Part shown: positions 21,133 through 32,732 of the stretch, one piece after another | Numbering within the stretch: position 1 is the first letter of the stretch | Layout: every line of letters begins with the position of its first letter | Virus record (IMG/VR): IMGVR_UViG_3300024269_004845 | Strand: one strand, 5' to 3' | Length of the DNA stretch: 64,000 nt | DNA from: a virus | Taxonomy: Duplodnaviria > Caudoviricetes | Program-made: the position numbers and the translations under genes | Notes under the pieces: generated by a model | What the model saw: the letters and a program-made list of their open reading frames with translations, nothing else | Told to the model about the DNA's origin: nothing | The model's database searches: none

Positions 21133-22866
21133 TTAAAATGCACCACAGTGTAGTCTGTCACGAATAGTCTTGAGGTCTTCATCTACAAGAAGCTTGCCAT
21201 CCTTAAATACAGGGCGAAGTAGATTATCTGCATACTCGGGGTTAGTCATTTCTTTAAATGTATGATGGTCAGTATAACGAATATCATCGCCATCTCGGAA
21301 GAGATAACAGAGGCCTTTCTGAGACTTCTTGAAATTATTACCCTTAATCTTGTCAGTAATAGGGTCCTTATAAATCTGACGTTCCTCTCCATTGATAATA
21401 CTATTAGTAGCTTTTAAAGCGAATCCTAGAGAGTCCCTCGTATTGTACTGGTAGGTAAAGCTACCCACGCCAAGCGTACAGTTATTAACTGCGAATCCCT
21501 TTTCTGCGAGACGAGTATAAATAGCAATTGCTCTTTCAGGCGTAATGCTATCACCATAAATAGCGCCAATATGAGGGTCGAGTACCTTATAACCCTTGCT
21601 GTTAATAGTACCACCGAAGATTTCCCAAAGAAGTTCAACAGTACCCTTCATAGCAGGAGTAATTTCGGCCTTTTCGAAATCTACATACTCAACAGTTTCA
21701 GTATAGTATCCATCACCATCTTCGTCAGTGGTCCAAGCATGGTCACAAGTTACCTTGTAAAGATAATCGCCAATTCTTACTCGATACCAAGTTTCAGAAG
21801 CGCCATTATAAGAATATTCATCTTCGGCTTTCTTCTTAAAGTAATCCTTGATACCGTCTTCAGTCAGACCATCTACTACCATGTAGTCGGAACCCTTGAG
21901 CTCACCACAGATAATATCAATGGGGTCACCGCTATCACCACGAATGATAATCTTACCATTACGGGCCATAATGGACTTCTTTAGACGAGGTAGATAATTA
22001 GTAATTACATTCCAGTAATCATAGGTGTCAGATACCATACTCAGAGGGCCAGTCTTAAATACATCCTCGATTAGATGACGATAGCATTCAAATTCACCTT
22101 CACGACCGTAAGAACTCATAACAGAGTGTTCGGTAGAAGGAACTCCACGGCCTACGGTTTCCTTGGTACAATCGCAGTTGTAGAAGTCTTCAAGCCACAT
22201 AATAGAAGCAATAGTAGCAGTACCAGTGAAAGAAAGAAGATGTCCTGCGCTGGACTTATATGCGGTATCCTTAGAAGTCATACCACGCATAGAGAAGTCA
22301 CCGCAAGCGCTGGAAGGTACGCCATTCTCAACTGTAAGTTCAAAGAACTTTTCAACGATTTCACGGTACTTATAAGCGATTGTAGCAGCAGTCATAGGAT
22401 GCCAAATATTTACACTGATATAGGTTTCAAGATAATTAACGAGCCAACCAAAACCCTTGACAGTATTAGAAATTTCAAACATTGGGGTCTTGATATTTAC
22501 ACGAGTACCCTCGGCAACAGCCTTAATCTGGATAGGTAGATAACCAAGGTCGTAAAGCTTCTTCATTTCAGTGGTATCAGCAGCCTGCTCAGTCATGGTA
22601 TGAGCAATGACACGCTTATATTCTGCTTCAATCTCTTCCCAAGGACGACCGAAGAAATGCTTTTCAAAAGCATCAATTAGATATTCCTTAATAAGACCCT
22701 GAAGACCAAACATAACAACCTTATTTACGCCCTCAATACGAGTCATACGAGGAGTCCAATAAGAAACAAGAAATTCCAGACCAGGCACATATGCCAGGTG
22801 ATGAATTGTCTTATAAAAGTCAGTTTCGAGCAATGGATTAATAGTGTGAGTTCTTGCGTTATTCAT
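21133..22866 (-). CDS. NAMPT/NadV-family phosphoribosyl- or ADP-ribosyl-transferase
   Basis: TDFYK, DFSMRG, PSTEHSVM, SMVSDTYD, RGDSGDP, IYGDSIT, GVGS, TRD, KDP; about 80 aa acidic insert after DPIDIICG. Confidence 0.9.
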   Translation of the reverse strand: MNNARTHTINPLLETDFYKTIHHLAYVPGLEFLVSYWTPRMTRIEGVNKVVMFGLQGLIKEYLIDAFEKHFFGRPWEEIEAEYKRVIAHTMTEQAADTTEMKKLYDLGYLPIQIKAVAEGTRVNIKTPMFEISNTVKGFGWLVNYLETYISVNIWHPMTAATIAYKYREIVEKFFELTVENGVPSSACGDFSMRGMTSKDTAYKSSAGHLLSFTGTATIASIMWLEDFYNCDCTKETVGRGVPSTEHSVMSSYGREGEFECYRHLIEDVFKTGPLSMVSDTYDYWNVITNYLPRLKKSIMARNGKIIIRGDSGDPIDIICGELKGSDYMVVDGLTEDGIKDYFKKKAEDEYSYNGASETWYRVRIGDYLYKVTCDHAWTTDEDGDGYYTETVEYVDFEKAEITPAMKGTVELLWEIFGGTINSKGYKVLDPHIGAIYGDSITPERAIAIYTRLAEKGFAVNNCTLGVGSFTYQYNTRDSLGFALKATNSIINGEERQIYKDPITDKIKGNNFKKSQKGLCYLFRDGDDIRYTDHHTFKEMTNPEYADNLLRPVFKDGKLLVDEDLKTIRDRLHCGAF

Positions 22867-22909
22867 AAAAATTTCCCCCTTAGTGAAATTTATTTTTTAT
22901 TATTATATT

Positions 22910-22934
22910 ACTTAAATACATTTTGTATCTAAGT
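22910..22934. promoter_or_regulatory. candidate operator upstream of NAMPT-like gene
   Basis: ACTTAAATACATTTTGTATCTAAGT near-palindrome just downstream of a TTGACT...TATAGT promoter. Confidence 0.6.
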
Positions 22935-22991
22935 CTATATATACTATAACATATTTTTTTAAAAAAGTCAAGTAAAATGTCTTACTAAAAC

Positions 22992-23022
22992 AAAAAATGC
23001 TACTGAAAATTTCAGTAGCATT
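22992..23022 (-). terminator. intrinsic terminator closing the tRNA array
   Basis: AATGCTACTGAAA/TTTCAGTAGCATT-type stem followed by T-tract on minus strand. Confidence 0.75.
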
Positions 23023-23029
23023 AAAATTA

Positions 23030-23123
23030 TGGCGGAGACGGGGAGGCTCGAACTCCCGCACCGTTTTTTAGACGGCCTACCTCATTAGCAGTGAGGCCTC
23101 GTCACCATCTTGAGTACGTCTCC
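23030..23123 (-). tRNA. tRNA-Ser(GCT)
   Basis: cloverleaf, CCTCA-ctGCTaa-TGAGG, long V-arm, G73-CCA. Confidence 0.95.
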
Positions 23124-23133
23124 ATACACACTA

Positions 23134-23355
23134 TTATTCCAGCGTGAAGTATTGGATTTTCTCATATGAGAAACCAATATCTTCATGCGGAACATAGAAA
23201 ATTTCCTTTATAAGAGGGAGAAATTGATTATCTGGACGTTGCATTTCTTCAACGACCATGATAGCTGTGTCTTCATCAGGAACTATTAATATGGGAAGGC
23301 GATTAAAATCATCATATTCACCATATGAACCTTGAATCAGAAACATAACAATCAA
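23134..23355 (-). CDS. hypothetical protein
   Basis: acidic 73 aa ORF, GSYGEYDD motif. Confidence 0.55.
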   Translation of the reverse strand: MIVMFLIQGSYGEYDDFNRLPILIVPDEDTAIMVVEEMQRPDNQFLPLIKEIFYVPHEDIGFSYEKIQYFTLE

Positions 23356-23498
23356 ACCCTCGCAGAAAAATTTAAGGAGTGACTATTTCGAACATCCCAT
23401 CACTCACGGGGGCTCATTTGATTTCTCGTGAACGTTGCTCTTAAGTCCATGGGCTCAGATGCGTTGTCCCGATATGGCGCAGTGACGTAACTGCGCAA

Positions 23499-23810
23499 TT
23501 AACGAAGATTATGCATGAGCATAAAATTAGTGATAAAGTGACGCAAGAACTTACGAAGTTCTTCTTCATCAAGTGAAGTAGTCTCCTTTAAGGAACGCAA
23601 AACTTCATTACCTAAAGAGGTGACCTTGTGGTAGTTGTTATCTTCAAGAACGTTTCCGAAAATTTCAACCATATCATCAGAACTGTAATCTTCTGGTTCG
23701 ACTACTTTGTTGTAGTCTCCTATATCCTCTTCTGCGTAATCAGATATAGGTCCATAGAAATATGCTCTGTTTCCACTCGGGTTTTCCATAACGGTCCAAT
23801 TTCTAAACAT
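23499..23810 (-). CDS. hypothetical protein
   Basis: GGAG SD, acidic 103 aa. Confidence 0.65.
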   Translation of the reverse strand: MFRNWTVMENPSGNRAYFYGPISDYAEEDIGDYNKVVEPEDYSSDDMVEIFGNVLEDNNYHKVTSLGNEVLRSLKETTSLDEEELRKFLRHFITNFMLMHNLR

Positions 23811-23834
23811 ATATAATCTCCATTCTCAAAGAAA

Positions 23835-24168
23835 ATATGGCATTCGACCTGCAATCCGCAATCCTTCTTAACTAGGGAGTAGCGAGTTTTATCCCTTGTA
23901 CTTCGGGCACCTACTTTACCCCTCATGCTTTAGTCTCCATTTAAGGCCTCTGGCTGTTGCCACCAAGATTAACTTTGAATATATTAGGTAGATACTGCAC
24001 CCTCTTATGGGCATCGTCACTACTATTCGGTTTCGATAAATTATAAAACTTATCAAAACCTATAAGGATTATCCTTAATCGCAGTATTTAATAGAAACTA
24101 AATCATAATCATACGACTTAGTTTCAAGAGAGATATGGCGAACTATACCTCTCTATGACTCACTTACC
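23835..24168 (-). ncRNA. candidate multi-helix structured RNA (about 330 nt)
   Basis: hairpins 24127-24154, 24094-24125 and 24029-24060 whose mismatches are all G-U on the minus strand; boundaries approximate. Confidence 0.5.
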
Positions 24169-24310
24169 TGGAGCTGGTGGTCGGACTCGAACCGACAACC
24201 TACTGATTATGGTGGTTATCACAAGATTTGAACTCATATCTCCGACTAGCGGTGTCTTTCTTAGACGAGACAACCCAAGTCAGTTGCGCTGCCAATTGCG
24301 CCACACCAGC
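24169..24310 (-). tRNA. tRNA-Thr(TGT) interrupted between positions 35 and 36 by a 66-nt insert
   Basis: 35-nt 5' half (24276-24310) plus 41-nt 3' half (24169-24209) give a canonical 76-nt cloverleaf. Confidence 0.9.
24210..24275 (-). ncRNA. nested mini-tRNA (acceptor, D, shrunken anticodon, T arms, ACCA)
   Basis: GGTTGTC TC GTCT AAGAA AGAC A CCG CTAGT CGG AGAT ATGAG TTCAAAT CTTGT GATAACC A CCA. Confidence 0.85.
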
Positions 24311-24492
24311 ATATAGCCTATTTTGATTAAAGACCCAAATTAATCATATTCACTCGATTAATAAGAGTTTATTATATAACTAATAAGATGCTTTCGATTA
24401 ACCACTACTAACATCTAGCCTCTAATCCTGTATAGGGACAGGCACTTGGCTTTTTTTGTTGAGAACGCTATAGTGCGAAGTGAAACATTTAA

Positions 24493-24569
24493 TGGTAGGC
24501 CTGAAGGGACTTGAACCCCTGACCAAGCGCTTATGAGGCGCCAGCTCTAACCAACTGAGCTACAGGCCT
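24493..24569 (-). tRNA. tRNA(CAT), probably Ile2 rather than Met
   Basis: ctCATaa loop, Ile-like body AGGCCTGTAGCTCAGTTGGTTAGAGC, C4-G69, A73. Confidence 0.85.
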
Positions 24570-24814
24570 ATATAAAATGAGGGAATAGCATCATCACCCT
24601 CGATGGCACGTTGTGCGAGCTGCCTTCGGAAAGTCGCCGTCTCGTAATCCACATTCACGGACTTACTTCAGCAATGTAGATACGGTTTAACCATGCCCAA
24701 ACCATACAACGCTTCTGCCTCAACTGCATCGCTCAAAATGGGCTCCTACCGCAAAGTAACTAGCCGTTTTGTATATCAAACCTAGTTAGAAAAATTACTC
24801 TTGCGCAAGAGATA

Positions 24815-24901
24815 TGGTGCCGCAGGCGGGAATCGAACCCGCACACTGTTTCCAGTAAGGGTTTTTGAGACCCTCGCGTCTGCCTGTTCCGCCACTGCGG
24901 C
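24815..24901 (-). tRNA. tRNA-Leu(CAA)
   Basis: AGGGT-ctCAAaa-ACCCT, long V-arm, ACCA. Confidence 0.95.
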
Positions 24902-24921
24902 ATATCACTTTCAACATATTT

Positions 24922-24950
24922 ATTATAACATATTATTCCCTCAAAGTCAA
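24922..24950 (-). promoter_or_regulatory. sigma70/SigA promoter inside tRNA array
   Basis: TTGACT-N17-TATAAT with TG extension. Confidence 0.8.
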
Positions 24951-24978
24951 GTATTTTCGGGCTTTTTTGAAAGTTTTT

Positions 24979-25055
24979 TGGGGTCGAGGGCAGGACTCGA
25001 ACCTGCAAGGACTGGGGTTAATCCCCAGTATGTCTTCCAATTCCACCACCTCGAC
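24979..25055 (-). tRNA. aberrant tRNA-like gene (nominal anticodon TTA, A33, C73)
   Basis: perfect acceptor and T arms; anticodon arm CTGGGG-ATTAA-CCCCAG; Leu-like D-loop but short V-loop. Confidence 0.75.
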
Positions 25056-25062
25056 AAATAAA

Positions 25063-25239
25063 AGATACTAAACCTGCACTCCCGATTCTCCAAGCAGGAC
25101 AACCCTCTATTCCAAACCATATTATTTGGAACCCTTATAGGCGTCAACAAACGGGTCATAGCTATTTTGTCATCTACATGTTATTCCCATAATTACTTAC
25201 AGGCACTCGATATCGTACTTTTACTACCATTTAGTATCT
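25063..25239 (-). ncRNA. candidate structured spacer RNA (177 nt)
   Basis: closed by 10-bp AGATACTAAA/TTTAGTATCT, fills the spacer between two tRNAs. Confidence 0.45.
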
Positions 25240-25240
25240 A

Positions 25241-25332
25241 TGGCGGAGGCGGTGAGGTTCGAACTCACGCGGCGCTATTAACGCCCTACTCCCTTTCCAG
25301 GGGAGCCCCTTTGACCACTTGGGTACACCTCC
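25241..25332 (-). tRNA. tRNA-Ser(GGA)
   Basis: CTCCC-ctGGAaa-GGGAG, long V-arm, GCCA. Confidence 0.95.
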
Positions 25333-25343
25333 ATAAAATTAAG

Positions 25344-25572
25344 AAACCACCGACAACAGTCGCTTACGATTTTCACGCTGTCTCCAAGTCATGAGCTTGG
25401 CGCTTTATATTCGCATAGTATCAACAAGCAAGTGAATCATGACTTTCACCCGTTATCTTGTGACTTGTGCCTTCTAAGCTATTTGCCCCTATCACGATTA
25501 TCCTTTATGCGCTGGACCAGCTGGCGGGCATTCTATTAAGCATTCCTATTATTTCAAGGCTATCAGTGGTTT
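25344..25572 (-). ncRNA. candidate structured spacer RNA (229 nt)
   Basis: 14-bp closing helix AAACCACTGATAGC/GTTGTCGGTGGTTT with 3 G-U pairs, begins right after a tRNA CCA. Confidence 0.55.
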
Positions 25573-25691
25573 TGGTGGGAGAGGTTGGATTCGAACCAAC
25601 GAACGGTGAGCAACCGACCTTTTTTACGTGATAAGGTGCTAATCTTATCATGGTGCACCAAGGCTCCTTTAACCTCTTGGATACTCTCTCC
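25573..25691 (-). tRNA. tRNA-Tyr(GTA)-like gene with about 29-nt insert in the anticodon loop
   Basis: Tyr-type D-arm, V-arm, T-arm and ACCA; 31 nt instead of 2 between anticodon stem and GTAAA. Confidence 0.7.
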
Positions 25692-25713
25692 ATATATGCC
25701 GCAAATGCGGCTA

Positions 25714-25956
25714 TTAATATCCTTCTCTAATACAATTTCTAATCATTTCTTTAGTCCAAGGAGTTGTATCCTGGCAAGCAAAATGATTAATTGCCATTAG
25801 TGGAAGTTTATTTTTATTTAGTTCTTTCTTAATAAAAGAAATCATATCATCAGCTTCTTCATCATTGACAAAGAAGTCGAAACCTAAAGTAACAGGACCA
25901 CCACATCGAATATCGACGGGGTCGTTTCTTTCACAATCAACTATGATTTTTCTCAT
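25714..25956 (-). CDS. hypothetical protein
   Basis: GGAGG SD, 80 aa. Confidence 0.65.
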   Translation of the reverse strand: MRKIIVDCERNDPVDIRCGGPVTLGFDFFVNDEEADDMISFIKKELNKNKLPLMAINHFACQDTTPWTKEMIRNCIREGY

Positions 25957-25984
25957 ATATTAGATTCCTCCTGTGATTGTTTCT

Positions 25985-26070
25985 TGGTGGGCCAGGCTGG
26001 ACTTGAACCAGCAATGCCGTGAGGCGCCTGATTTACAGTCAGGTGGGGTTACCAATTTTCCTACTGACCC
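25985..26070 (-). tRNA. tRNA-Tyr(GTA), G1-C72
   Basis: CCTGA-ctGTAaa-TCAGG, V-arm, ACCA. Confidence 0.93.
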
Positions 26071-26073
26071 ATA

Positions 26074-26156
26074 TGGTAGGCCAGGTGGGTGCCGACCCCA
26101 CTACCCCGAAGGAACGGTTTTACAGACCGCCGCGTTTGCCGATTCGCTACTGACCT
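26074..26156 (-). tRNA. tRNA-Tyr(GTA), A1-U72, atypical T-loop GTCGGCA
   Basis: GCGGT-ctGTAaa-ACCGT, V-arm, ACCA. Confidence 0.88.
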
Positions 26157-26162
26157 ATATAA

Positions 26163-26251
26163 TGGTCCCTGGGGTCAGATTTGAACTGACAGTGTTTCTT
26201 ATGTCACGGTTTTACAGACCGCTGGCTTCAACCAATTCGCCACACCCAGGG
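26163..26251 (-). tRNA. tRNA-Tyr(GTA), C1-G72
   Basis: CCCTGGG/CCCAGGG acceptor, ctGTAaa loop, long V region, ACCA. Confidence 0.88.
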
Positions 26252-26287
26252 ATATATAATTACATTTAAGATAAAATTGATTTTAAT

Positions 26288-26332
26288 GGCAACATTAACT
26301 TAAAGAATTATATATCCCTAAGTTAAGTTGCC
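26288..26332 (-). promoter_or_regulatory. switch hairpin between Tyr leader ORF and tRNA-Tyr
   Basis: GGCAAC-TTAACTTA...TAAGTTAA-t-GTTGCC enclosing AGGGATATATAATT, the complement of 26248-26261. Confidence 0.7.
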
Positions 26333-26358
26333 TAAATATACTGATAATATCGATACAT
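26332..26358 (-). CDS. Tyr-rich leader peptide MYRYYQYI
   Basis: AAAAGGAG-9nt-ATG TAT CGA TAT TAT CAG TAT ATT TAG directly upstream of three tRNA-Tyr. Confidence 0.75.
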   Translation of the reverse strand: MYRYYQYI

Positions 26359-26407
26359 TTAGTACAACTCCTTTTAATTTATTTTTATTGGTCCCTACTT
26401 AAAGGGA

Positions 26408-26502
26408 TGGCGGTAGCGGAGGGATTCGAACCCCCATGTCGGTTCAAAGCCGACACACAAGATTTCAAGTCTAGGCCGTTATAACCATTTCGGTACGCTA
26501 CC
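26408..26502 (-). tRNA. tRNA-Ser(TGA)
   Basis: ctTGAaa loop, long V-arm, GCCA; one mismatch in anticodon stem. Confidence 0.92.
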
Positions 26503-26518
26503 ATATATAATTTGTAAA

Positions 26519-26615
26519 TGGCGGGGAAGGTAGGATTTGAACCCACGTGCCCAAGGTAAAAACGGACAACCTCTTTTCGAGAGAGGCGCAATCAGCCAGA
26601 CTCTGCCACTTCCCC
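26519..26615 (-). tRNA. tRNA-Ser(CGA)
   Basis: CCTCT-ctCGAaa-AGAGG, long V-arm, GCCA. Confidence 0.93.
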
Positions 26616-26760
26616 ATGTGCGATTCTTAAGCAATTTACAAATTGCAGTCTATTAGAGGCCCTGCAACACTCTAACACTTACAATAAGATTTCACTTAAA
26701 CATTGTTATTCTTCGTAAGGACTCCGCCACTCTTACATCAGATGGGAGCGACCCATCAAC

Positions 26761-26837
26761 TGGTAGGCCCTCTGGGGCTCGAACCCAGGACCGAGCGCTT
26801 ATGAGGCGCTAGCTCTAACCGACTGAGCTAAGGGCCT
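26761..26837 (-). tRNA. tRNA(CAT), probably Ile2
   Basis: AGCGC-ctCATaa-GCGCT, paralog of 24493-24569. Confidence 0.85.
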
Positions 26838-26840
26838 ATA

Positions 26841-27002
26841 TAATACAATAAGCTGTTTATCTCATTCCATTTACCACAGCTACTTTTTCATATATCCAAG
26901 ACCTTCTACATCCTTGGCAATTCTCTCTACTGACCTTTCGGGCCTTGTTCGATACACTTTTGACAAGGGAGGGATATATGCTTCGTGGCACTTATCGTAT
27001 TA
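26841..27002 (-). ncRNA. candidate structured spacer RNA (162 nt)
   Basis: 12-bp closing helix TAATACGATAAG/CTTATTGTATTA with one G-U. Confidence 0.5.
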
Positions 27003-27206
27003 AAAATATTTCAACTATTGGTATTCTATTCCTAAACTATCACGCCGCCTAAGCACACGATGTCGGATTTTCACCGATGTCTCCAATCAATTGAAAAAAT
27101 AACAGGCTGTTCATCAAACTCCACTTAGCCGTTTCGTAACTTCCATCCACCCTCTCGTGGGACACAAAGACTGCGGCACCTATTATTGAAAGAGTATTGC
27201 TACTCA

Positions 27207-27293
27207 TGGTGCGGATGGGGGGACTTGAACCCCCACGGGATTGCTCCCACAAGCACCTCAAGCTTGCGTGTCTGCCTATTCCACCACACCCGC
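27207..27293 (-). tRNA. tRNA-Leu(GAG)
   Basis: CAAGC-ttGAGgt-GCTTG, V-arm, ACCA. Confidence 0.95.
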
Positions 27294-27297
27294 ATAT

Positions 27298-27585
27298 TTA
27301 CATAAAACAATCTCTAATCAATCGATTATAAAGAGTAGAGTCTGTTCTTTTTAGCTCAGCAAGAGGTTGGACAATTTCATCTGGCATAACAATTCCAGTA
27401 GCATCATAGAAAACACCATCAATTTTGGTGATAAAGTGTCCTCTGATTGGCATGTAATAGATTCTTGCATAAGGGAAGCGCTTACATAAAATAAGTGCAA
27501 ACCAAAGGCAATTACCATCAATCCAATTAGCGTCCTTTTTCCATCTACGACGAATAAAATCCAATACTTCTTCTTGCTTATTCAA
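27298..27585 (-). CDS. hypothetical phage-type protein
   Basis: AAGGAG SD; GNCLWFA...GHF...FYDATG (Cys-His-Asp pattern). Confidence 0.7.
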   Translation of the reverse strand: MNKQEEVLDFIRRRWKKDANWIDGNCLWFALILCKRFPYARIYYMPIRGHFITKIDGVFYDATGIVMPDEIVQPLAELKRTDSTLYNRLIRDCFM

Positions 27586-27610
27586 TTAAAAATCTCCTTT
27601 ATCAGAGATA

Positions 27611-27697
27611 TGGTGCCGCTGACGGGAATCGAACCCGTATGAGGTTTCCCTCGAGGGATTTTAAGTCCCTTGTGTCTGCCAGTTCCACCACAGCGGC
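27611..27697 (-). tRNA. tRNA-Leu(TAA)
   Basis: AGGGA-ctTAAaa-TCCCT, V-arm, ACCA. Confidence 0.95.
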
Positions 27698-27946
27698 ATA
27701 TAGAAAATCCCAAAACTAATCAGCTGTTAATCAAACACCATTACTCCAGCACTTTAAACGCTTGCAGGTGTCAAACCTAGCACTTTATGCGGTTCTCGGA
27801 GCACTAACCATTTTGGGGGCTGATTCAACATCAGTCGTACTACATATAAAGGGGTGTTCAATCTTTCTCAGTTAAACTACTACTCAATATATGTATCCAA
27901 TACGCACGGTCTCCCGCGATATTGCCTTTGGGCCAACTTAATGGCT

Positions 27947-28029
27947 TGGTGCTGGCGGTGGGACTCGAACCCACACGGTTGCCCACTGGTTCCTAAGACC
28001 AGCGCGTCTGCCAATTCCGCCACGCCAGC
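27947..28029 (-). tRNA. tRNA-Leu(TAG)
   Basis: CTGGT-ctTAGga-ACCAG, V-arm, ACCA. Confidence 0.95.
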
Positions 28030-28041
28030 ATGTGGAGGATA

Positions 28042-28530
28042 TTAATAACTATCCTCGCCGTTTAGAGAATCATCATTAAAAATCCAATCCTCTACACGCA
28101 ATACTCGGTAGTTGTCCTTGTCGTCTCTGACAACAACAGTATCGATACCAGCATTGATAATCATTCTCTTGCACATAGAGCAAGGTTCAGACTTTGCTAC
28201 GTAAGCACCAGTATCCTTTTCCTTACCACAGAGATAAAGAGTAGCACCAATCATCTTTTCACGAGAAGCAGAAATAATAGCATTTGCTTCAGCATGAACA
28301 CTGCGGCAAAGTTCATATCTAGTACCACGAGGTACATTGAGCTTAGCACGAATACAAGTACCTACGTCACAACAATTCTTTCTTCCACGAGGTGCACCTA
28401 CATAACCAGTAGAAACAATCTCGTCATTCTTAACGATTACTGCACCATAATTACGTCTTAGACAGGTGCCACGTTCAAGAACAGTTTCAGCGATATCGAG
28501 GTAATAATTTGTCTTATCAATTCTATTCAT
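28042..28530 (-). CDS. dCMP deaminase family protein
   Basis: TCLRR.YGAVIV, VHAEANAII, PCSMC; start ATG 28530 after AAGGAG. Confidence 0.9.
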   Translation of the reverse strand: MNRIDKTNYYLDIAETVLERGTCLRRNYGAVIVKNDEIVSTGYVGAPRGRKNCCDVGTCIRAKLNVPRGTRYELCRSVHAEANAIISASREKMIGATLYLCGKEKDTGAYVAKSEPCSMCKRMIINAGIDTVVVRDDKDNYRVLRVEDWIFNDDSLNGEDSY

Positions 28531-28563
28531 CGGAATCTCTCCTTTGTTATTTTTCTTGTCTCT

Positions 28564-28592
28564 ATTATAACATAAAACCCAATAGAAATCAA
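28564..28592 (-). promoter_or_regulatory. sigma70/SigA promoter
   Basis: TTGATT-N17-TATAAT with TG extension. Confidence 0.7.
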
Positions 28593-28644
28593 TATATAAC
28601 ATGTAAAAATTTCGATAAATTTGTTTGATAATTTCTATTGGGAC

Positions 28645-28684
28645 AAACAAAAACCCCTTGCAAAACTCGTAGTTCTGCAAGGGG
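28645..28684 (-). terminator. intrinsic terminator or attenuator after leader ORF
   Basis: CCCCTTGCAGAACT-acg-AGTTTTGCAAGGGG-TTTTTGTTT. Confidence 0.85.
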
Positions 28685-28720
28685 CATAAAGAACATTCTT
28701 AGAAATACCTTATAATCCCG

Positions 28721-28819
28721 TTATACAGCAGTCAGAGTTTTGCGCATGACAAATGAACTCATAAGTATATATGAGCTGGACAAACTATATAAACTGGATA
28801 GCATGTTCATATTCATCAT
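28721..28819 (-). CDS. 32-aa Ser/Leu/Tyr/Met-rich leader peptide
   Basis: AAGGAGGAG SD; MMNMNMLSSLYSLSSSYILMSSFVMRKTLTAV*. Confidence 0.65.
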   Translation of the reverse strand: MMNMNMLSSLYSLSSSYILMSSFVMRKTLTAV

Positions 28820-28920
28820 GACAAAGTCTCCTCCTTAACAAGATTTTTTAAAGTATTTTTAAAGTATATCTTATACTATGATTGAACCGAGCTAATTATT
28901 ACTCGAATGTGTTTTATAGA

Positions 28921-29052
28921 ATATAGTCGTGAATATCAGCAACGATTTTGTTTGAGTTCTATAAGGTTTGAATTCAGGTTTCAAAGAATAGAAATTAATA
29001 AAAATTTACATTTAATTTTTAGATGAAATCGTTATCTCCGCTACGACTATAT
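28921..29052 (-). ncRNA. candidate structured 5' leader or small RNA
   Basis: ATATAGTCGT/ACGACTATAT plus AACGATTT/AAATCGTT nested helices, directly after promoter 29055-29083. Confidence 0.45.
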
Positions 29053-29054
29053 AC

Positions 29055-29083
29055 ATTATAACATGTTATTTTCGAAAAGTCAA
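29055..29083 (-). promoter_or_regulatory. sigma70/SigA promoter
   Basis: TTGACT-N17-TATAAT with TG extension. Confidence 0.8.
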
Positions 29084-29107
29084 GACCTTTTTGCAAATTT
29101 TTTAAAA

Positions 29108-29365
29108 TTATTGTTCGAGGTCTTTCATTAGACTAATCAATTTACTTTTAAGCCGTCCACATTCTTTAATCCTTAGAAACATCTTTAAGGTAATAATTGA
29201 GATGATAATAAATGCGATAGTTGTTACCGTTACAGAAACATTAAAGAATGTGGAAATTGCTGTTACAATAGATAATATAAATAGCAAACAAATAATCTTG
29301 AAGTCGTTTTTATTTTGCTTTGTGATTTTATCTATTGTAATTTTTAGCTTTTCTTTTAATTCCAT
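29108..29365 (-). CDS. small membrane protein
   Basis: two hydrophobic segments, AAGGAG SD. Confidence 0.65.
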   Translation of the reverse strand: MELKEKLKITIDKITKQNKNDFKIICLLFILSIVTAISTFFNVSVTVTTIAFIIISIITLKMFLRIKECGRLKSKLISLMKDLEQ

Positions 29366-29380
29366 AAATATGCACTCCTT

Positions 29381-29476
29381 TTAATGAATAAGCATACCCA
29401 AAATATGGGGTACAAACATCATCAAAAAGTAATAGAGAACAAATAAACCAACAATGCCTTTCAAAATCTTTCTCAT
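29381..29476 (-). CDS. 31-aa hydrophobic peptide (not in ORF track)
   Basis: AAGGAG SD; MRKILKGIVGLFVLYYFLMMFVPHILGMLIH*. Confidence 0.55.
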   Translation of the reverse strand: MRKILKGIVGLFVLYYFLMMFVPHILGMLIH

Positions 29477-29549
29477 ATATCTGTCACTCCTTATTTTAAT
29501 TTTGATTGTTTATATAATAACATATTTTGAATTAAAAGTCAAGAGTTTA

Positions 29550-29840
29550 TTACAACATATTGAAGTCGCAATTTCTAGGGATAAAAATTTCAACACCTTT
29601 GGTCATTCCAGAAAGAGCATTTGAATTAATAGAAACCATTGGTTCAATATAATCATCAGTTACAGTATATTTTACAGTTGCGGCATCAACCATTGTATGC
29701 TGAATCCAGCCATCCTGGTCATAAGTTAGGTGACAGTATTCCTTTACTGTTTGATAATTTTTTTCCATAACGGTCTCTGCGCTAAAGTTCATATGAATTA
29801 ATTTTGCGGTTGGGCCTTTACTCATTTTTGCTCCAAACAT
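29550..29840 (-). CDS. hypothetical protein
   Basis: AAAGGAG SD, 96 aa. Confidence 0.65.
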   Translation of the reverse strand: MFGAKMSKGPTAKLIHMNFSAETVMEKNYQTVKEYCHLTYDQDGWIQHTMVDAATVKYTVTDDYIEPMVSINSNALSGMTKGVEIFIPRNCDFNML

Positions 29841-29928
29841 ATCTATTATCTCCTTTCTACGTTTTAAATATATTTTTTTTCGATAAAAATCGTAATATAT
29901 ATTATATTATAACCGAGGAGGATTTAAG

Positions 29929-30768
29929 ATGAAAAAATATTGCTTAGTTGCTCTATTAACTTTGTGTTTGGCTCTTTGTCTAGCAGGTTGTGGAGATAAA
30001 CAGGAAGTAATTGTTCCTGATGTTCAGGATGACCCAATTCATACTGTATTTGATTCATCTTTTGACGTTGATAATATAGAAAAATACGATTTTACATTAG
30101 TTTTTGAAAGCAATCAAAACTTTAATGTATACGAAATAGTTGATAGGACAATAGAAAAAACATCCATCCAGCATGAATATAACAATGTCACCTATATGAA
30201 AGATGCTACTGCCCAATATGACCCGTTTGATTTATTTGTATATCGGGATGGGGCGTTTTATTCCATGTGGGACTTAGTATCTAGAAACCGATTAAGTTTT
30301 GGCGAAATTAAGCATTTGGTTGATGGACACTCATCTCTTAATGATGAAGAATATATTAGTAAAGATTTTGTGTTCGCAGAGGGATTGATAGAAGAATTAA
30401 AAACAAAAGAGCTTCTTTCTTATCCTATTTATAATAATTGCGAACCCGCTATGATAAATGCTTATTTTCAATTAAAAACTGAGGATTATGCATGGGCACT
30501 TCTTAACGTAGATGATATAGCTGGTTATTTTGACTGTATTTTTATCGCAAGATACGAAAATCCAGAACAGAGAGGCGCAATTCTTGATGCAATTGAATAT
30601 AGAAAGCCTATTGTCAAAGAAAATAAAGTGAATGAAGAAATGAAAGAAAATCGCGCAAAGAATCAAAGAGTTTACGAAATTGAAGACAGAAAACTGATTG
30701 TTTATTTCTCTGCAATGTATCCTAAAGAAGGCATTTATGAATTTATTGAAAGTTATATTGAACAGTAA
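29929..30768 (+). CDS. lipoprotein
   Basis: LAGC lipobox. Confidence 0.75.
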   Translation: MKKYCLVALLTLCLALCLAGCGDKQEVIVPDVQDDPIHTVFDSSFDVDNIEKYDFTLVFESNQNFNVYEIVDRTIEKTSIQHEYNNVTYMKDATAQYDPFDLFVYRDGAFYSMWDLVSRNRLSFGEIKHLVDGHSSLNDEEYISKDFVFAEGLIEELKTKELLSYPIYNNCEPAMINAYFQLKTEDYAWALLNVDDIAGYFDCIFIARYENPEQRGAILDAIEYRKPIVKENKVNEEMKENRAKNQRVYEIEDRKLIVYFSAMYPKEGIYEFIESYIEQ

Positions 30769-31403: not shown

Positions 31404-32732
31404 GTGTTTTTACCAAAAGATGTTTTGAAAGTTTTGAATAAATTAAATGATGCAGGATATGAATCGTATGTTGTGGGAGGAGCTGTTAGAGACCATGTAA
31501 TGGGATTGGAACCTCATGATTATGACATTACTACTTCTGCGCTACCAAGCCAAATCAAAGAAGTATTTCCCGAACACTTTGCTCTTGGAGAAAAGTTTGG
31601 TACTATTTCTGTAATTACTGATTCTGAGCCTATCGAAGTTACTACTTTTCGAAAGGATTCCGATTATTCCGATGGCCGACATCCTGATAAAATCGAATTT
31701 GTGACTTCTGTGTATGATGATTTATGCAGACGAGATTTCACAATGAATGCTATTGCATTCAATCCTAAAACTGGGTTTGTCGACCCATTTAATGGGATTA
31801 TGGATATTGAAAACAAGTTGATTCGATGTGTAAATAATCCTATTGATAGATTCAATGAAGACGGTTTAAGAATTCTTCGTGCGGCTAGATTTGCTGCTAA
31901 ATTGGGATTCGATATCGAGCAAAAAACGTTGGTAGGCATGCAAAATACCATCAATATGCTTGATTGTGTCGCTGAGGAACGTATTGGTCCTGAATTTGTA
32001 AAAATTTTGATGTCTGACCACGCAGAAAAGACTTTGCATGATTATGCTTTTGTAATTAAAAAAATTATTCCAGAATATTGCAGAGTTCTTAGATGTAAGC
32101 AAAATAATCCTCACCACATTTATACGCTCGAAGGTCATACATTGAAGGTTGTCGAAAACGTGCCGAAAAAAGAAATTGTTCGTCTGGCTGCTTTTTTCCA
32201 TGACATTGGTAAGCCATATGTTATGGTTAAGGATAAGGACGGTATTGAACATTTTCCTGGTCATGCAAGAAAAGGCGCAGAACTAACAGAAAAAATTATG
32301 ACACGGCTCCGTTTTTCAAGTAAAGAAATTAAAGATGTAAGCGATTTGGTTAAGTATCATGATTCTTTCTGGAAGCCAACTAAGAGAATAACTAAAAATC
32401 TTCTTAGTAAGTTGGGTGATGAATTATTCTTTGATATTGTAGAACTTCGAAAAGCTGATATTCTTGCACAGGCATCAAAAAATGATAATAGCATTGAGAC
32501 TCTTTTGATGTTCTATAATCAAATTAAAGAAGAAAATTCTGCTATTACACTAAAGGATTTGGCTATTGATGGTAACGACTTAATCAACGAATGTCATATT
32601 CATCCATCTCCTTTATTCAAGAAAGTCCTAAATACCTTACTTGAAATGGTGATGGATGAAGTAATTAAAAATGACAAGGCAATTTTACTTGAAGAGGCAA
32701 AAAAAATTATTCAAAACGAAAAAGACTGTTGA
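31404..32732 (+). CDS. cca: CCA-adding tRNA nucleotidyltransferase with HD domain
   Basis: VGGAVRD, DYDITT, RRDFTMNAIA, EDGLRILRAARF, H...FFHDIGKP...H...HD. Confidence 0.9.
   Translation: MFLPKDVLKVLNKLNDAGYESYVVGGAVRDHVMGLEPHDYDITTSALPSQIKEVFPEHFALGEKFGTISVITDSEPIEVTTFRKDSDYSDGRHPDKIEFVTSVYDDLCRRDFTMNAIAFNPKTGFVDPFNGIMDIENKLIRCVNNPIDRFNEDGLRILRAARFAAKLGFDIEQKTLVGMQNTINMLDCVAEERIGPEFVKILMSDHAEKTLHDYAFVIKKIIPEYCRVLRCKQNNPHHIYTLEGHTLKVVENVPKKEIVRLAAFFHDIGKPYVMVKDKDGIEHFPGHARKGAELTEKIMTRLRFSSKEIKDVSDLVKYHDSFWKPTKRITKNLLSKLGDELFFDIVELRKADILAQASKNDNSIETLLMFYNQIKEENSAITLKDLAIDGNDLINECHIHPSPLFKKVLNTLLEMVMDEVIKNDKAILLEEAKKIIQNEKDC

What the first reader, a model, noticed from the sequence alone, without database searches (positions are those of the whole stretch)
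28645..28836. Upstream leader peptide whose codons mirror the array's anticodons, followed by a terminator
Seen (minus): strong SD, 32-aa ORF; codons 7-19 are CTA TCC AGT TTA TAT AGT TTG TCC AGC TCA TAT ATA CTT, 13 in a row read by Leu/Ser/Tyr/Ile2 tRNAs, sampling each of the four encoded Leu anticodons once, three of the four Ser, Tyr and AUA. A strong terminator starts 36 nt after the stop, and GCAAAACTC near the ORF end is a perfect complement of GAGTTTTGC in the terminator 3' arm (possible antiterminator, covered by a terminating ribosome). Inference: a multi-tRNA sensor that allows readthrough into the array when any of these tRNAs is depleted. Caveat: a separate promoter (28564-28592) lies downstream, so readthrough would be a boost rather than the only source.
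Basis: partly seen in the sequence, partly recalled or inferred. Interest (0 to 1): 0.8.

Follow-up and report, generated by a model that had tools for sequence, protein, structure and literature searches.

The report
Leader-peptide attenuator gating phage tRNA genes
A tiny translated gene written mostly in leucine, serine and tyrosine codons, wired to a switchable transcription stop, sits in front of a gut jumbo phage's Leu/Ser/Tyr tRNA genes and probably lets more transcription through when ribosomes read those codons slowly; I found no published account of such control for tRNA genes.

Summary
A strong SD and a 32-codon ORF lie at 28819-28721 (minus strand). Its 13-codon Leu/Ser/Tyr/AUA run is the longest in all six frames of the window (0.004 expected). 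A 15-bp terminator and the GCAAAACTC/GAGTTTTGC complementarity are also there.

Relatives occur only in gut-metagenome contigs and fall into four sequence types. All four keep the ORF in frame, the run, the box GCGCAAAAC and the terminator. Between distant types the run keeps its amino acids while synonymous sites are nearly saturated (pN/pS 0.04-0.10). The rest of the peptide drifts (about 0.57).

In one type the terminator's T tract abuts tRNA-Leu(UAG). In another it abuts the dCMP deaminase SD. Neither has an intervening promoter.

Folding with ribosome footprints predicts the terminator when the ribosome reaches the stop codon. It predicts a conserved antiterminator when the ribosome stalls in the run.

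A second mini-ORF before the tRNA-Tyr genes keeps its four Tyr codons while every other codon changes.

My best reading (0.6) is a ribosome-dependent attenuator that senses class II tRNA supply. It has no experimental support and covariation is thin. The "one codon per anticodon" detail is not conserved.

This scan has noted the same architecture in other, unrelated phages. I found no published description.

The parts
29055..29083 (-). Promoter of the leader transcript, TTGACT-17-TATAAT with TG (11 of 12)
   Evidence: The homologous promoter in type D (L087 3713-3741) is TTGACA-17-TATAAT, 12 of 12.
28923..29050 (-). Structured 5' UTR domain closed by AUAGUCGU/ACGACUAU. It is present in types A and B only and its role is unknown.
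   Evidence: Fold (whole leader z = -5.6). The closing stem is conserved between types A and B while the interior differs. The domain is absent from types C and D.
28828..28836 (-). Shine-Dalgarno sequence AAGGAGGAG. It is also the 5' partner ('region 1') that pairs with the CUCU/box C region when no ribosome is bound.
   Evidence: GGAG:CUCU or CUUCU pairing is kept in all four types.
28721..28819 (-). Leader ORF of 32 codons
   Evidence: It is conserved in frame in four sequence types, and all indels are multiples of three. It is 96-99% nt-identical where the neighbouring 85-aa gene is 72-76% identical.
28763..28801 (-). Regulatory run, codons 7-19: LSSLYSLSSSYIL (Leu, Ser, Tyr and one AUA)
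   Evidence: Longest such run in six frames, 0.004 expected. pN/pS is 0.04-0.10 in the run against about 0.57 in the rest, with synonymous sites near saturation.
28735..28745 (-). Box C, GCGCAAAACTC ('region 2'). It pairs either with the SD/spacer region or with the terminator's 3' arm.
   Evidence: Conserved at nucleotide level in all four types although the surrounding codons change. Pairings are shown.
28717..28728 (-). Last codons, stop codon and the GGG box (CTGTA-TAAC-GGG). This is the 5' strand of the inner antiterminator helices, which pair with UGCAG and CCC of the terminator's 5' arm.
   Evidence: GGG:CCC becomes GAG:CUC in L080, a compensatory change.
28686..28714 (-). Spacer hairpin between the stop codon and the terminator. 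It forms the tip of the antiterminator, its last pair reaching the first base of the terminator stem (28685); the sequence differs in every type but always folds into a hairpin.
28643..28685 (-). Intrinsic terminator: 15-bp stem at 28685-28653, then TTTTTGTTTG
   Evidence: It is 91-97% conserved. In L087 its T tract ends 1 nt before tRNA-Leu(tag).
28564..28592 (-). Second promoter, TTGATT-17-TATAAT with TG, in front of dCMP deaminase. It is present in types A and B only.
   Evidence: No such site exists in L080 or L087.
28042..28530 (-). dCMP deaminase gene, probably inserted later between the attenuator and the tRNA array
   Evidence: Pfam PF00383 and PHROG 174. Absent in type D. 75-78% identical to Clostridia/Ruminococcus proteins, one of which has TsaE/TsaD-family (PF00814) neighbours.
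27947..28029 (-). tRNA-Leu(UAG), the first tRNA of the array and the gene directly behind the terminator in type D
23030..27697 (-). Rest of the tRNA array: Leu x3, Ser x4, Tyr x3, two Ile2-like CAT and one aberrant tRNA, with further promoters inside

Best explanation
This is a ribosome-dependent (leader-peptide) transcription attenuator at the head of the phage's tRNA array.

A strong promoter makes a transcript whose 32-codon ORF contains 13 consecutive Leu/Ser/Tyr/AUA codons. These are the amino acids served by the class II and Ile2-like tRNAs the phage encodes downstream.

The RNA has three competing pairings: (1) the SD/start region with box C (GCGCAAAACUC); (2) box C with the first half of the terminator's 3' arm, together with the stop-codon region paired to the terminator's 5' arm, which forms a long antiterminator hairpin; (3) the terminator itself.

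If the lead ribosome runs through the ORF and sits on the stop codon, it covers box C and the stop-proximal strand. The terminator then forms and transcription ends at about 28650. If the ribosome is slowed in the run because charged Leu, Ser, Tyr or AUA-reading tRNA is short, box C and the stop region stay free. They capture both terminator arms as those arms emerge, and RNA polymerase reads on into tRNA-Leu(UAG) and beyond. In the window and type B this readthrough passes through an inserted dCMP deaminase gene that also has its own promoter, so there it is a boost rather than the only source. If no ribosome loads at all, the SD region holds box C and termination is favoured.

Shown here: the sequence elements, their conservation pattern, the gene order, and the predicted structures.

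Inferred: that the ORF is translated, that termination is conditional, and that the natural signal is loss of usable class II tRNAs, for example through a host toxin acting on them. In that case the device would be a feedback that raises phage tRNA output on demand.
For: 1. Conservation island. The leader ORF and terminator are the best-conserved features of the region in every comparison. Against L067, for example, they are 83% and 91% identical, while the UTR and promoters are 20-56% and the genes 50-79%.

2. Translation. A strong SD and ATG are present in all four types, and every indel is codon-sized.

3. Regulatory-codon pattern. Between types A/B and D the run has 6-7 synonymous differences on about 9 synonymous sites, but only 1-2 nonsynonymous differences on about 30 sites. 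The rest of the peptide has 11-13 nonsynonymous differences on about 38-40 sites. Each of the four types keeps exactly one ATA codon, at different positions.

4. Gene order. In type D (L085-L088) there is no deaminase. The order is promoter (12 of 12), ORF, terminator, T tract, and then tRNA-Leu(tag) starting at the next base. The next promoter-like site lies after that tRNA. In type C (L080) the T tract is followed within about 15 nt by the deaminase SD and GTG, with no promoter-like site between.

5. Alternative structure. For transcripts ending just after GUUUUGC, the free MFE in all four types is the same nested antiterminator, at -18.7 to -25.7 kcal/mol and only 2.5-9.6 kcal/mol above the terminator conformer. 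It is better than shuffled upstream sequence in each type (p = 0.018, <0.002, 0.004, 0.058). 98% of cells pair, against 39-54% with slid partners. There is one compensatory change and two wobble-compatible changes.

6. Dependence on ribosome position. With the A site on the stop codon, box C:3' arm pairing is 0 and the terminator nucleus forms in all four types (3-8 expected pairs). With a ribosome stalled at codons 10-19 and the SD occupied, the antiterminator has 7-9 pairs (3.4 in one case, L087 with the A site at codon 16) and the terminator nucleus about 0 (3.7 in that case).

7. Second leader in the same array. MYRYYQYI lies 81 nt before three tRNA-Tyr genes. In L087 it reads MYSYYKYM: all four Tyr codons are kept and all three other codons have changed.

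8. The peptide family was found only at this locus among 1.84 billion representative proteins.
Against: At full length and at equilibrium, the terminator dominates whatever the ribosome position. Switching therefore has to be kinetic, which was modelled only with truncated transcripts and assumed footprints.

A single stalled ribosome without a second one on the SD does not free box C in several cases.

Covariation is thin. Most pairs are invariant, there is one compensatory pair, and the alignment was fitted to the model. There are only four lineages, and they are related.

In type C only 10 of the 13 run codons are Leu/Ser/Tyr/ATA, and without a ribosome its model favours the antiterminator.

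In the window and in type B a good promoter lies behind the terminator, so control there can only be partial.

The aa-level conservation of the run fits a functional 13-residue peptide core equally well.

Tight transcription-translation coupling is not assured in Firmicutes hosts (my own knowledge, not tested here).
Confidence: 0.6

Rival explanations
1. It is a stand-alone small-protein gene with its own promoter and terminator. The conserved Ser/Leu/Tyr-rich 13-residue core is the functional part of a 29-32 aa peptide. The mRNA folds to hide its SD and limit expression. The terminator simply ends the gene, and leaky readthrough feeds the next gene.
For: The unit has its own strong promoter and terminator. 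The run is conserved at amino-acid level with pN/pS of 0.04-0.10. SD/start pairing with the 3' part of the ORF is seen in all types. At equilibrium the terminator always wins.
Against: Outside the run the peptide evolves almost neutrally, and its C-terminal half is replaced in type D. Box C is conserved as nucleotides, not as codons, and the region after the stop codon (GGGAU) is conserved too. This reading gives no reason for the stop-codon region to be complementary to the terminator's 5' arm, and none for the single ATA codon that moves between positions. In types C and D the next gene has no other visible promoter. There are no Pfam-like relatives and the peptide occurs in no other genomic context.
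Confidence: 0.2
2. It is a leader-peptide attenuator, but the signal is general translation capacity or amino-acid starvation (for example the timing of host take-over), not the supply of the specific tRNAs. The Leu/Ser/Tyr composition would then be incidental to AU-rich hairpins within the ORF.
For: The same structural evidence applies as for the main model. Parts of the run lie in small palindromes (AGCUCAUA/UAUGAGUU and GCUAU/AUAGU) that generate Ser, Tyr and Leu codons on both strands.
Against: Type D has lost the internal hairpin yet keeps the run with 5-6 synonymous changes. A second leader made of Tyr codons precedes the tRNA-Tyr genes. The run is a strong outlier in the window.
Confidence: 0.12
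3. It is a type I toxin-antitoxin-like locus: a small membrane-active peptide whose mRNA hides its SD, controlled by an antisense RNA.
For: The SD is sequestered by a long-range helix. In type B an antisense promoter-like site TTGACA-16-TATAGT lies inside the ORF.
Against: The maximum 19-residue Kyte-Doolittle mean is 0.73-1.52, below the usual 1.6 for a membrane span. Type D carries Gly, His and Arg in that stretch. The antisense site is weak in the window (9 of 12) and absent in types C and D.
Confidence: 0.03
4. It is a non-coding structured RNA (an sRNA or a 5' processing element of the tRNA precursor), and the ORF is incidental.
For: The fold z-score is strong (-5.6), and nucleotide-level conservation includes synonymous sites within type A.
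Against: The frame is kept through several codon-sized indels. The SD and ATG are invariant. Between types the run changes at synonymous sites only. There is no Rfam match.
Confidence: 0.05

Closest known systems
Multivalent leader-peptide transcription attenuators of amino-acid operons (E. coli/Salmonella ilvGMEDA with Ile/Leu/Val, thr with Thr/Ile; also trpL, hisL, leuL, pheL)
   Same: A short translated ORF carries a run of regulatory codons and is followed by an intrinsic terminator. Terminator and antiterminator pairings are mutually exclusive, and the position of the lead ribosome chooses between them. A further pairing ('1:2') favours termination when nothing is translated. The run holds several amino acids, as in the ilv and thr leaders.
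   Different: The regulated genes are tRNA genes, not biosynthetic enzymes. The element is in a phage of a probable Clostridia host. 'Region 1' is the SD/start region itself. The antiterminator captures both arms of the terminator (box C with the 3' arm, the stop-codon region with the 5' arm) rather than only the 5' arm. The description of the classical systems comes from my own knowledge.
pheST (pheM leader) attenuator and T-box riboswitches: control of the translation apparatus by tRNA charging
   Same: The logic links decoding or charging of a given tRNA family to expression of a component that serves that same family.
   Different: pheM controls a synthetase, not a tRNA. T-boxes bind uncharged tRNA directly and need no ribosome, and no T-box or other Rfam family matches here.
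Ribosome-stalling attenuators of Gram-positive resistance genes (for example tlrB/yxjB in B. subtilis, PMC6851288; mef/mel, PMC4335068)
   Same: They show that leader-peptide stalling can drive terminator/antiterminator choice in Firmicutes.
   Different: There the stall is caused by an antibiotic bound to the ribosome, not by codon supply, and the leaders carry no amino-acid-specific codon runs.
Codon-matched leader ORF plus terminator cassettes noted earlier by this scan in other phages (e1-4040834, e1-3412744, e1-3450868, e1-4045671 and others)
   Same: The architecture is the same: promoter, a mini-ORF spelled in the amino acids of the tRNAs behind it, a terminator, then the tRNA block.
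   Different: Those are unrelated phages (marine Bacteroidota phages, phiCbK-like phages, giant phages from lake and soil) with no sequence similarity. They are AI notes that I did not check. This case is special in being restricted to class II (long-variable-arm) tRNAs.

Membership tests
Leader-peptide (ribosome-dependent) transcription attenuator | Short ORF with a ribosome-binding site that is actually translated | tested here: inconclusive
   A strong SD and ATG are present in all four types, and the frame is kept through codon-sized indels. There are no ribosome or proteome data.
Leader-peptide (ribosome-dependent) transcription attenuator | Cluster of regulatory codons, conserved as codon families while the rest of the peptide varies | tested here: met
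   There is a run of 13 such codons. pN/pS is 0.04-0.10 in the run against about 0.57 elsewhere. Type C is weaker, with 10 of 13.
Leader-peptide (ribosome-dependent) transcription attenuator | Intrinsic terminator between the leader ORF and the regulated gene | tested here: met
   The stem has 13-16 pairs and is followed by a T tract in all types.
Leader-peptide (ribosome-dependent) transcription attenuator | Antiterminator mutually exclusive with the terminator, selected by ribosome position | tested here: met
   This was tested in silico only. The shuffle tests give p = 0.002-0.06 per type. Covariation is thin, and equilibrium folding of the full transcript shows no switch.
Leader-peptide (ribosome-dependent) transcription attenuator | Downstream gene depends on readthrough (no promoter of its own) | tested here: inconclusive
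   Met in type D (tRNA-Leu(tag) starts right after the T tract) and in type C. Not met in the window or in type B, which have a promoter at 28592-28564.
Leader-peptide (ribosome-dependent) transcription attenuator | Readthrough rises when the cognate charged tRNA is limiting | not testable with these tools
   This needs Term-seq or reporter assays.
T-box riboswitch | Stem I with a specifier codon, a T-box sequence and a tRNA-acceptor-binding bulge | tested here: not met
   There is no Rfam match at E <= 1 in 22000-30000 other than the tRNAs and chance hits.
Type I toxin-antitoxin | Hydrophobic membrane-spanning peptide | tested here: not met
   The maximum 19-residue hydropathy is 0.73-1.52.
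Type I toxin-antitoxin | Conserved antisense RNA gene overlapping the toxin mRNA | tested here: not met
   An antisense promoter-like site appears only in type B (11 of 12) and weakly in the window (9 of 12). None is found in types C and D.

The most novel reading that the evidence does not exclude
The phage runs a demand-driven supply of class II tRNAs. The leader is a live read-out of how fast ribosomes decode Leu, Ser, Tyr and AUA codons, and it opens transcription into a complete set of long-variable-arm tRNAs when the host pool is disabled. One candidate cause is an abortive-infection toxin of the AbiEii/MenT3 kind, reported to prefer class II tRNAs (bioRxiv 10.64898/2026.01.19.700257). 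A CCA-adding/HD enzyme lies next door. A second, Tyr-only leader tunes the tRNA-Tyr trio. If true, this would be trp-operon-style attenuation applied to tRNA genes as a counter-defence sensor, which I could not find published.
Probability: 0.35. Interest if true: 0.88.

Novelty: new variant of a known kind. Interest (0 to 1): 0.75.

Why it matters
Phage tRNA genes are now thought to replace host tRNAs that are destroyed or disabled during infection (eLife 2023, PMC10264068; Nature 2024, PMC11464382; Nat Commun 2024, PMC11555353). How phages regulate these genes is essentially unknown.

A leader peptide that measures decoding speed and gates the tRNA genes would be a simple feedback sensor for tRNA damage. 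It would extend a textbook mechanism, attenuation, to a new class of targets. It would also explain why this array holds only long-variable-arm tRNAs.

The idea is directly testable with a short reporter construct. If it is general, codon-matched leaders could be used to predict which tRNAs a host's defences attack.

Tried and rejected
- Rfam scan of 22000-30000: only tRNAs and chance hits, and no T-box or riboswitch.
- blastn of the leader against GenBank phages: no match.
- dCMP deaminase relatives in IMG/VR (66 loci, 45-65% identical): none has the peptide or the leader.
- Exact or gapped DNA patterns in IMG/VR, JGI metagenomes and GTDB genomes: nothing or chance matches only.
No whole genome is held for the window.
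- dCMP deaminase as the regulated target: rejected as the primary target, because type D lacks the gene and the terminator there abuts tRNA-Leu. The gene is host-like and mosaic.
It works in the model only together with the stop-region:5'-arm helix and on truncated transcripts.
- 'One codon for each Leu anticodon': true for the window only.
- Type I toxin and pure sRNA readings: see the rival explanations.
- MAFFT alignments were too poor in the terminator of L080 and L087 for column-wise pair counts. I used a covariance-model alignment instead, which leans towards the structure.

Full report
**What is in the window**

On the minus strand, a promoter-like site TTGACT-17-TATAAT (29083-29055) is followed by a roughly 210-nt structured 5' UTR. 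Then comes the SD AAGGAGGAG (28836-28828) and a 32-codon ORF (28819-28721, MMNMNMLSSLYSLSSSYILMSSFVMRKTLTAV). After a 35-nt spacer there is a 15-bp G+C-rich hairpin with a T tract (28685-28643).

A second promoter-like site lies at 28592-28564. It is followed by a dCMP deaminase gene (28530-28042) and, 12 nt later, by tRNA-Leu(UAG), the first of 14 tRNA genes.

The array holds four Leu, four Ser, three Tyr, two CAT and one aberrant tRNA. The CAT genes have an Ile-type body.

The surroundings point to a large phage: NAMPT, a CCA-adding enzyme and a YunG-like protein. An identical neighbouring protein sits on a 265,931-nt contig.

**Is the codon run more than chance?**

Leu, Ser, Tyr and ATA codons make up 21.6% of codons in the window's long ORFs and 27.1% of all six-frame triplets. 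The run of 13 is the longest in any frame of the 64 kb, and the next longest is 9. The expected number of runs of 13 or more is 0.004. Part of the run lies in small palindromes, so the codons are not fully independent.

**Relatives**

None was found in GenBank phages, IMG/VR, JGI metagenomes or GTDB genomes.

Close homologues of the deaminase and of the 85-aa upstream protein led to short gut-metagenome contigs. A profile of the peptide searched against 1.84 billion representative proteins found exactly one more member.

Four sequence types result:
- A: the window, L068, L084, L098-L104, L108 and L109.
- B: L067, L071, L083 and L081, encoding MMNINTISSLYSLSSSYSLMSSFVMRKALTV.
- C: L080, encoding MKKTLISALYCTLSSYLMSSVVMRKTSNL.
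- D: L085-L088, encoding MTNMTILSSLYSLSSSYSLGMGHIVARKTRTA.

All four lie in the same gene neighbourhood, and all are followed by a homologous terminator and by tRNA-Leu genes.

**Conservation pattern**

The ORF and terminator form a conservation island. Against L098 and L108 the ORF is 96-98% identical, while the adjacent 85-aa gene is 72-76% identical. Against L067 the ORF is 83% and the terminator 91% identical, while the UTRs and promoters are 20-56%. All length differences within the ORF are whole codons.

Between the distant types the run keeps its amino acids while synonymous sites are close to saturation:
- A versus D: 6.0 synonymous differences on 9.2 sites, 2.0 nonsynonymous on 29.8.
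- B versus D: 7.0 on 9.0 sites, 1.0 on 30.0.

The rest of the ORF shows 10.8-12.8 nonsynonymous differences on 37.5-40.2 sites.

Each of the four types has exactly one ATA codon, but at different positions.

The box GCGCAAAAC(U)C is conserved as nucleotides in all four types although the neighbouring codons change. So is GGGAU (GAGAU in type C) just after the stop codon.

This is the pattern expected of a leader with regulatory codons plus RNA elements. It is not the pattern expected of a peptide that is functional along its whole length.

**Gene order**

In type D there is no deaminase. A consensus promoter (12 of 12), the ORF and the terminator are followed by ATTTTTTAT, and tRNA-Leu(tag) starts at the very next base. 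The next promoter-like site lies behind that tRNA. In type C the T tract is followed within about 15 nt by the deaminase SD and GTG, and no promoter-like site lies between. In these two lineages the downstream gene can therefore be reached only through the terminator.

The deaminase is 75-78% identical to proteins of Clostridia and Ruminococcus. At least one of those is chromosomal, with TsaE/TsaD-family (PF00814) neighbours. The gene is also mosaic among the phage contigs. It looks like a later insertion between the attenuator and the array. In types A and B it brought or acquired its own promoter.

**Structures**

The full leader folds well (z = -5.6). In every type the SD/start region pairs with the 3' part of the ORF, including CUCU/CUUCU and box C.

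I folded the segment from box C to just after GUUUUGC, the point at which only half of the terminator's 3' arm has been made. The free MFE in all four types is one nested hairpin with these parts:
- Box C pairs with the 3' arm (7-11 bp).
- The last codons and stop codon pair with UGCAG of the 5' arm. In type D this is CUGC:GCGG. In type C it is UCU:AGA plus UAAUGAG:CUCAUUG.
- GGG pairs with CCC (GAG:CUC in type C).
- A tip hairpin is present whose sequence differs in each type.

The hairpin's energy is -18.7 to -25.7 kcal/mol, which is 2.5-9.6 kcal/mol above the terminator conformer. In each type it is better than dinucleotide shuffles of the upstream 52-60 nt (p = 0.018, <0.002, 0.004, 0.058).

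On a covariance-model alignment of the seven distinct sequences, 98.3% of cells pair, against 39-54% when partners are slid. There is only one compensatory pair and two wobble-compatible changes, and most pairs never vary. The structure is therefore compatible with all the sequences and is conserved, but it is not proven by covariation.

**Ribosome dependence in silico**

At equilibrium the full transcript always forms the terminator, as is also true of classical attenuators. At the decision point the predictions are as follows:
- With a footprint whose A site is on the stop codon, all box C:3' arm and stop-region:5' arm pairs are removed, and the terminator nucleus forms in all four types.
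- With a ribosome held at codons 10-19 and a second one on the SD/AUG, the antiterminator has 7-9 pairs and the terminator nucleus is about 0 in all four types. The one exception is L087 with the A site at codon 16, where the two are about equal (3.4 against 3.7).
- With no ribosome, box C is held by the SD region. The terminator is then favoured in types B and D, the outcome is mixed in A, and the antiterminator is favoured in C.
- A single stalled ribosome that leaves the SD free often does not release box C. The model therefore needs the strong SD to be reoccupied, which is plausible but assumed.

**Second leader**

In the same array an SD and the ORF MYRYYQYI (26358-26332) lie 81 nt before three tRNA-Tyr genes. 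In L087 the ORF reads MYSYYKYM: the four Tyr codons are kept and all three other sense codons have changed. This independent case of regulatory-codon conservation raises my confidence that leader peptides are at work in this array.

**Rivals**

A stand-alone peptide gene fits the aa-level conservation of the run. It does not explain the conserved non-coding elements, the complementarity between the stop region and the terminator, or the gene order in types C and D.

A type I toxin reading fails on two counts. Hydropathy is too low (0.73-1.52). An antisense promoter-like site appears in type B only, with a weak one in the window and none in types C and D.

A pure RNA element is contradicted by frame conservation and by divergence that is restricted to synonymous sites.

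**Biological rationale (inference)**

Bacterial class II tRNAs are Leu, Ser and Tyr. A recent preprint reports that the abortive-infection toxin AbiEii of Streptococcus agalactiae probably prefers class II tRNAs, like MenT3, which acts on tRNA-Ser (10.64898/2026.01.19.700257). Human SLFN11 is cited as cleaving type II tRNAs (PMC13056530). A phage that carries a full class II set, a CCA-adding/HD enzyme and a Leu/Ser/Tyr leader would fit a counter-measure that switches on when those tRNAs fail. Nothing here tests this.

**Novelty**

Three full-text searches found no paper that links leader peptides or attenuators to phage tRNA genes. Earlier AI notes of this scan describe the same architecture in several unrelated phages. 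I did not check them, and they share no sequence with this locus.

I class this as a new variant of a known kind. I put 0.6 on the attenuator reading and about 0.35 on the specific reading as a sensor of class II tRNA supply.

Noticed in passing
window 26332-26358 (-) and hairpin 26288-26332; L087 4514-4540: A second mini-ORF, MYRYYQYI, has an SD and lies 81 nt upstream of three tRNA-Tyr genes. In L087 it reads MYSYYKYM: the Tyr codons are kept and the others have changed. The following hairpin's loop (AGGGAUAUAUAAUU) is complementary to the 5' leader plus the first bases of the first tRNA-Tyr. In L087 the loop has two A-to-G changes that still pair as G-U.
   Followed up: partly
window 23030-28029 and 31404-32732: The array holds only long-variable-arm (class II) tRNAs, two Ile2-like CAT tRNAs and one aberrant tRNA. 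A CCA-adding enzyme with an HD domain lies 3.4 kb away. This may be a counter-measure to toxins that act on class II tRNAs (AbiEii/MenT3-type).
   Followed up: partly
window 28923-29050 (-): A structured domain of about 128 nt lies at the 5' end of the leader transcript, closed by AUAGUCGU/ACGACUAU. The closing stem and the first 30 nt are conserved between types A and B while the interior differs. Types C and D lack the domain. Its function is unknown.
   Followed up: no
window 24979-25055 (-): ARAGORN calls this tRNA-like gene with anticodon TTA (it would read UAA). The Rfam tRNA model does not reach threshold, and the only hit is a weak tRNA-Sec match at 24.3 bits.
   Followed up: no
window 28042-28530 (-); L068 vs L084: The dCMP deaminase is 75-78% identical to Clostridia/Ruminococcus chromosomal proteins. 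It is absent from type D phages and mosaic among contigs: L068 and L084 have identical leaders, but their deaminase genes are only 83% identical. This points to recent acquisition from the host and to recombination.
   Followed up: partly
L087 4317-4392; L085 10512-10587: Type D arrays carry a tRNA-Ile with anticodon AAT, which is unusual for bacteria and phages.
   Followed up: no
L085 11207-12133: A LAGLIDADG-like ORF sits inside the tRNA-Tyr part of the array in L085, L086 and L088 but not in L087. It may be a homing endonuclease that has disrupted or replaced a tRNA-Tyr gene.
   Followed up: no
L080 449-478; L067 (antisense, inside the ORF): There are lineage-specific promoter-like sites. 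In L080, TTGTCA-18-TATAAT overlaps the leader's stop codon (11 of 12). In type B, an antisense TTGACA-16-TATAGT lies inside the leader ORF (11 of 12). Neither is conserved in the other types.
   Followed up: partly
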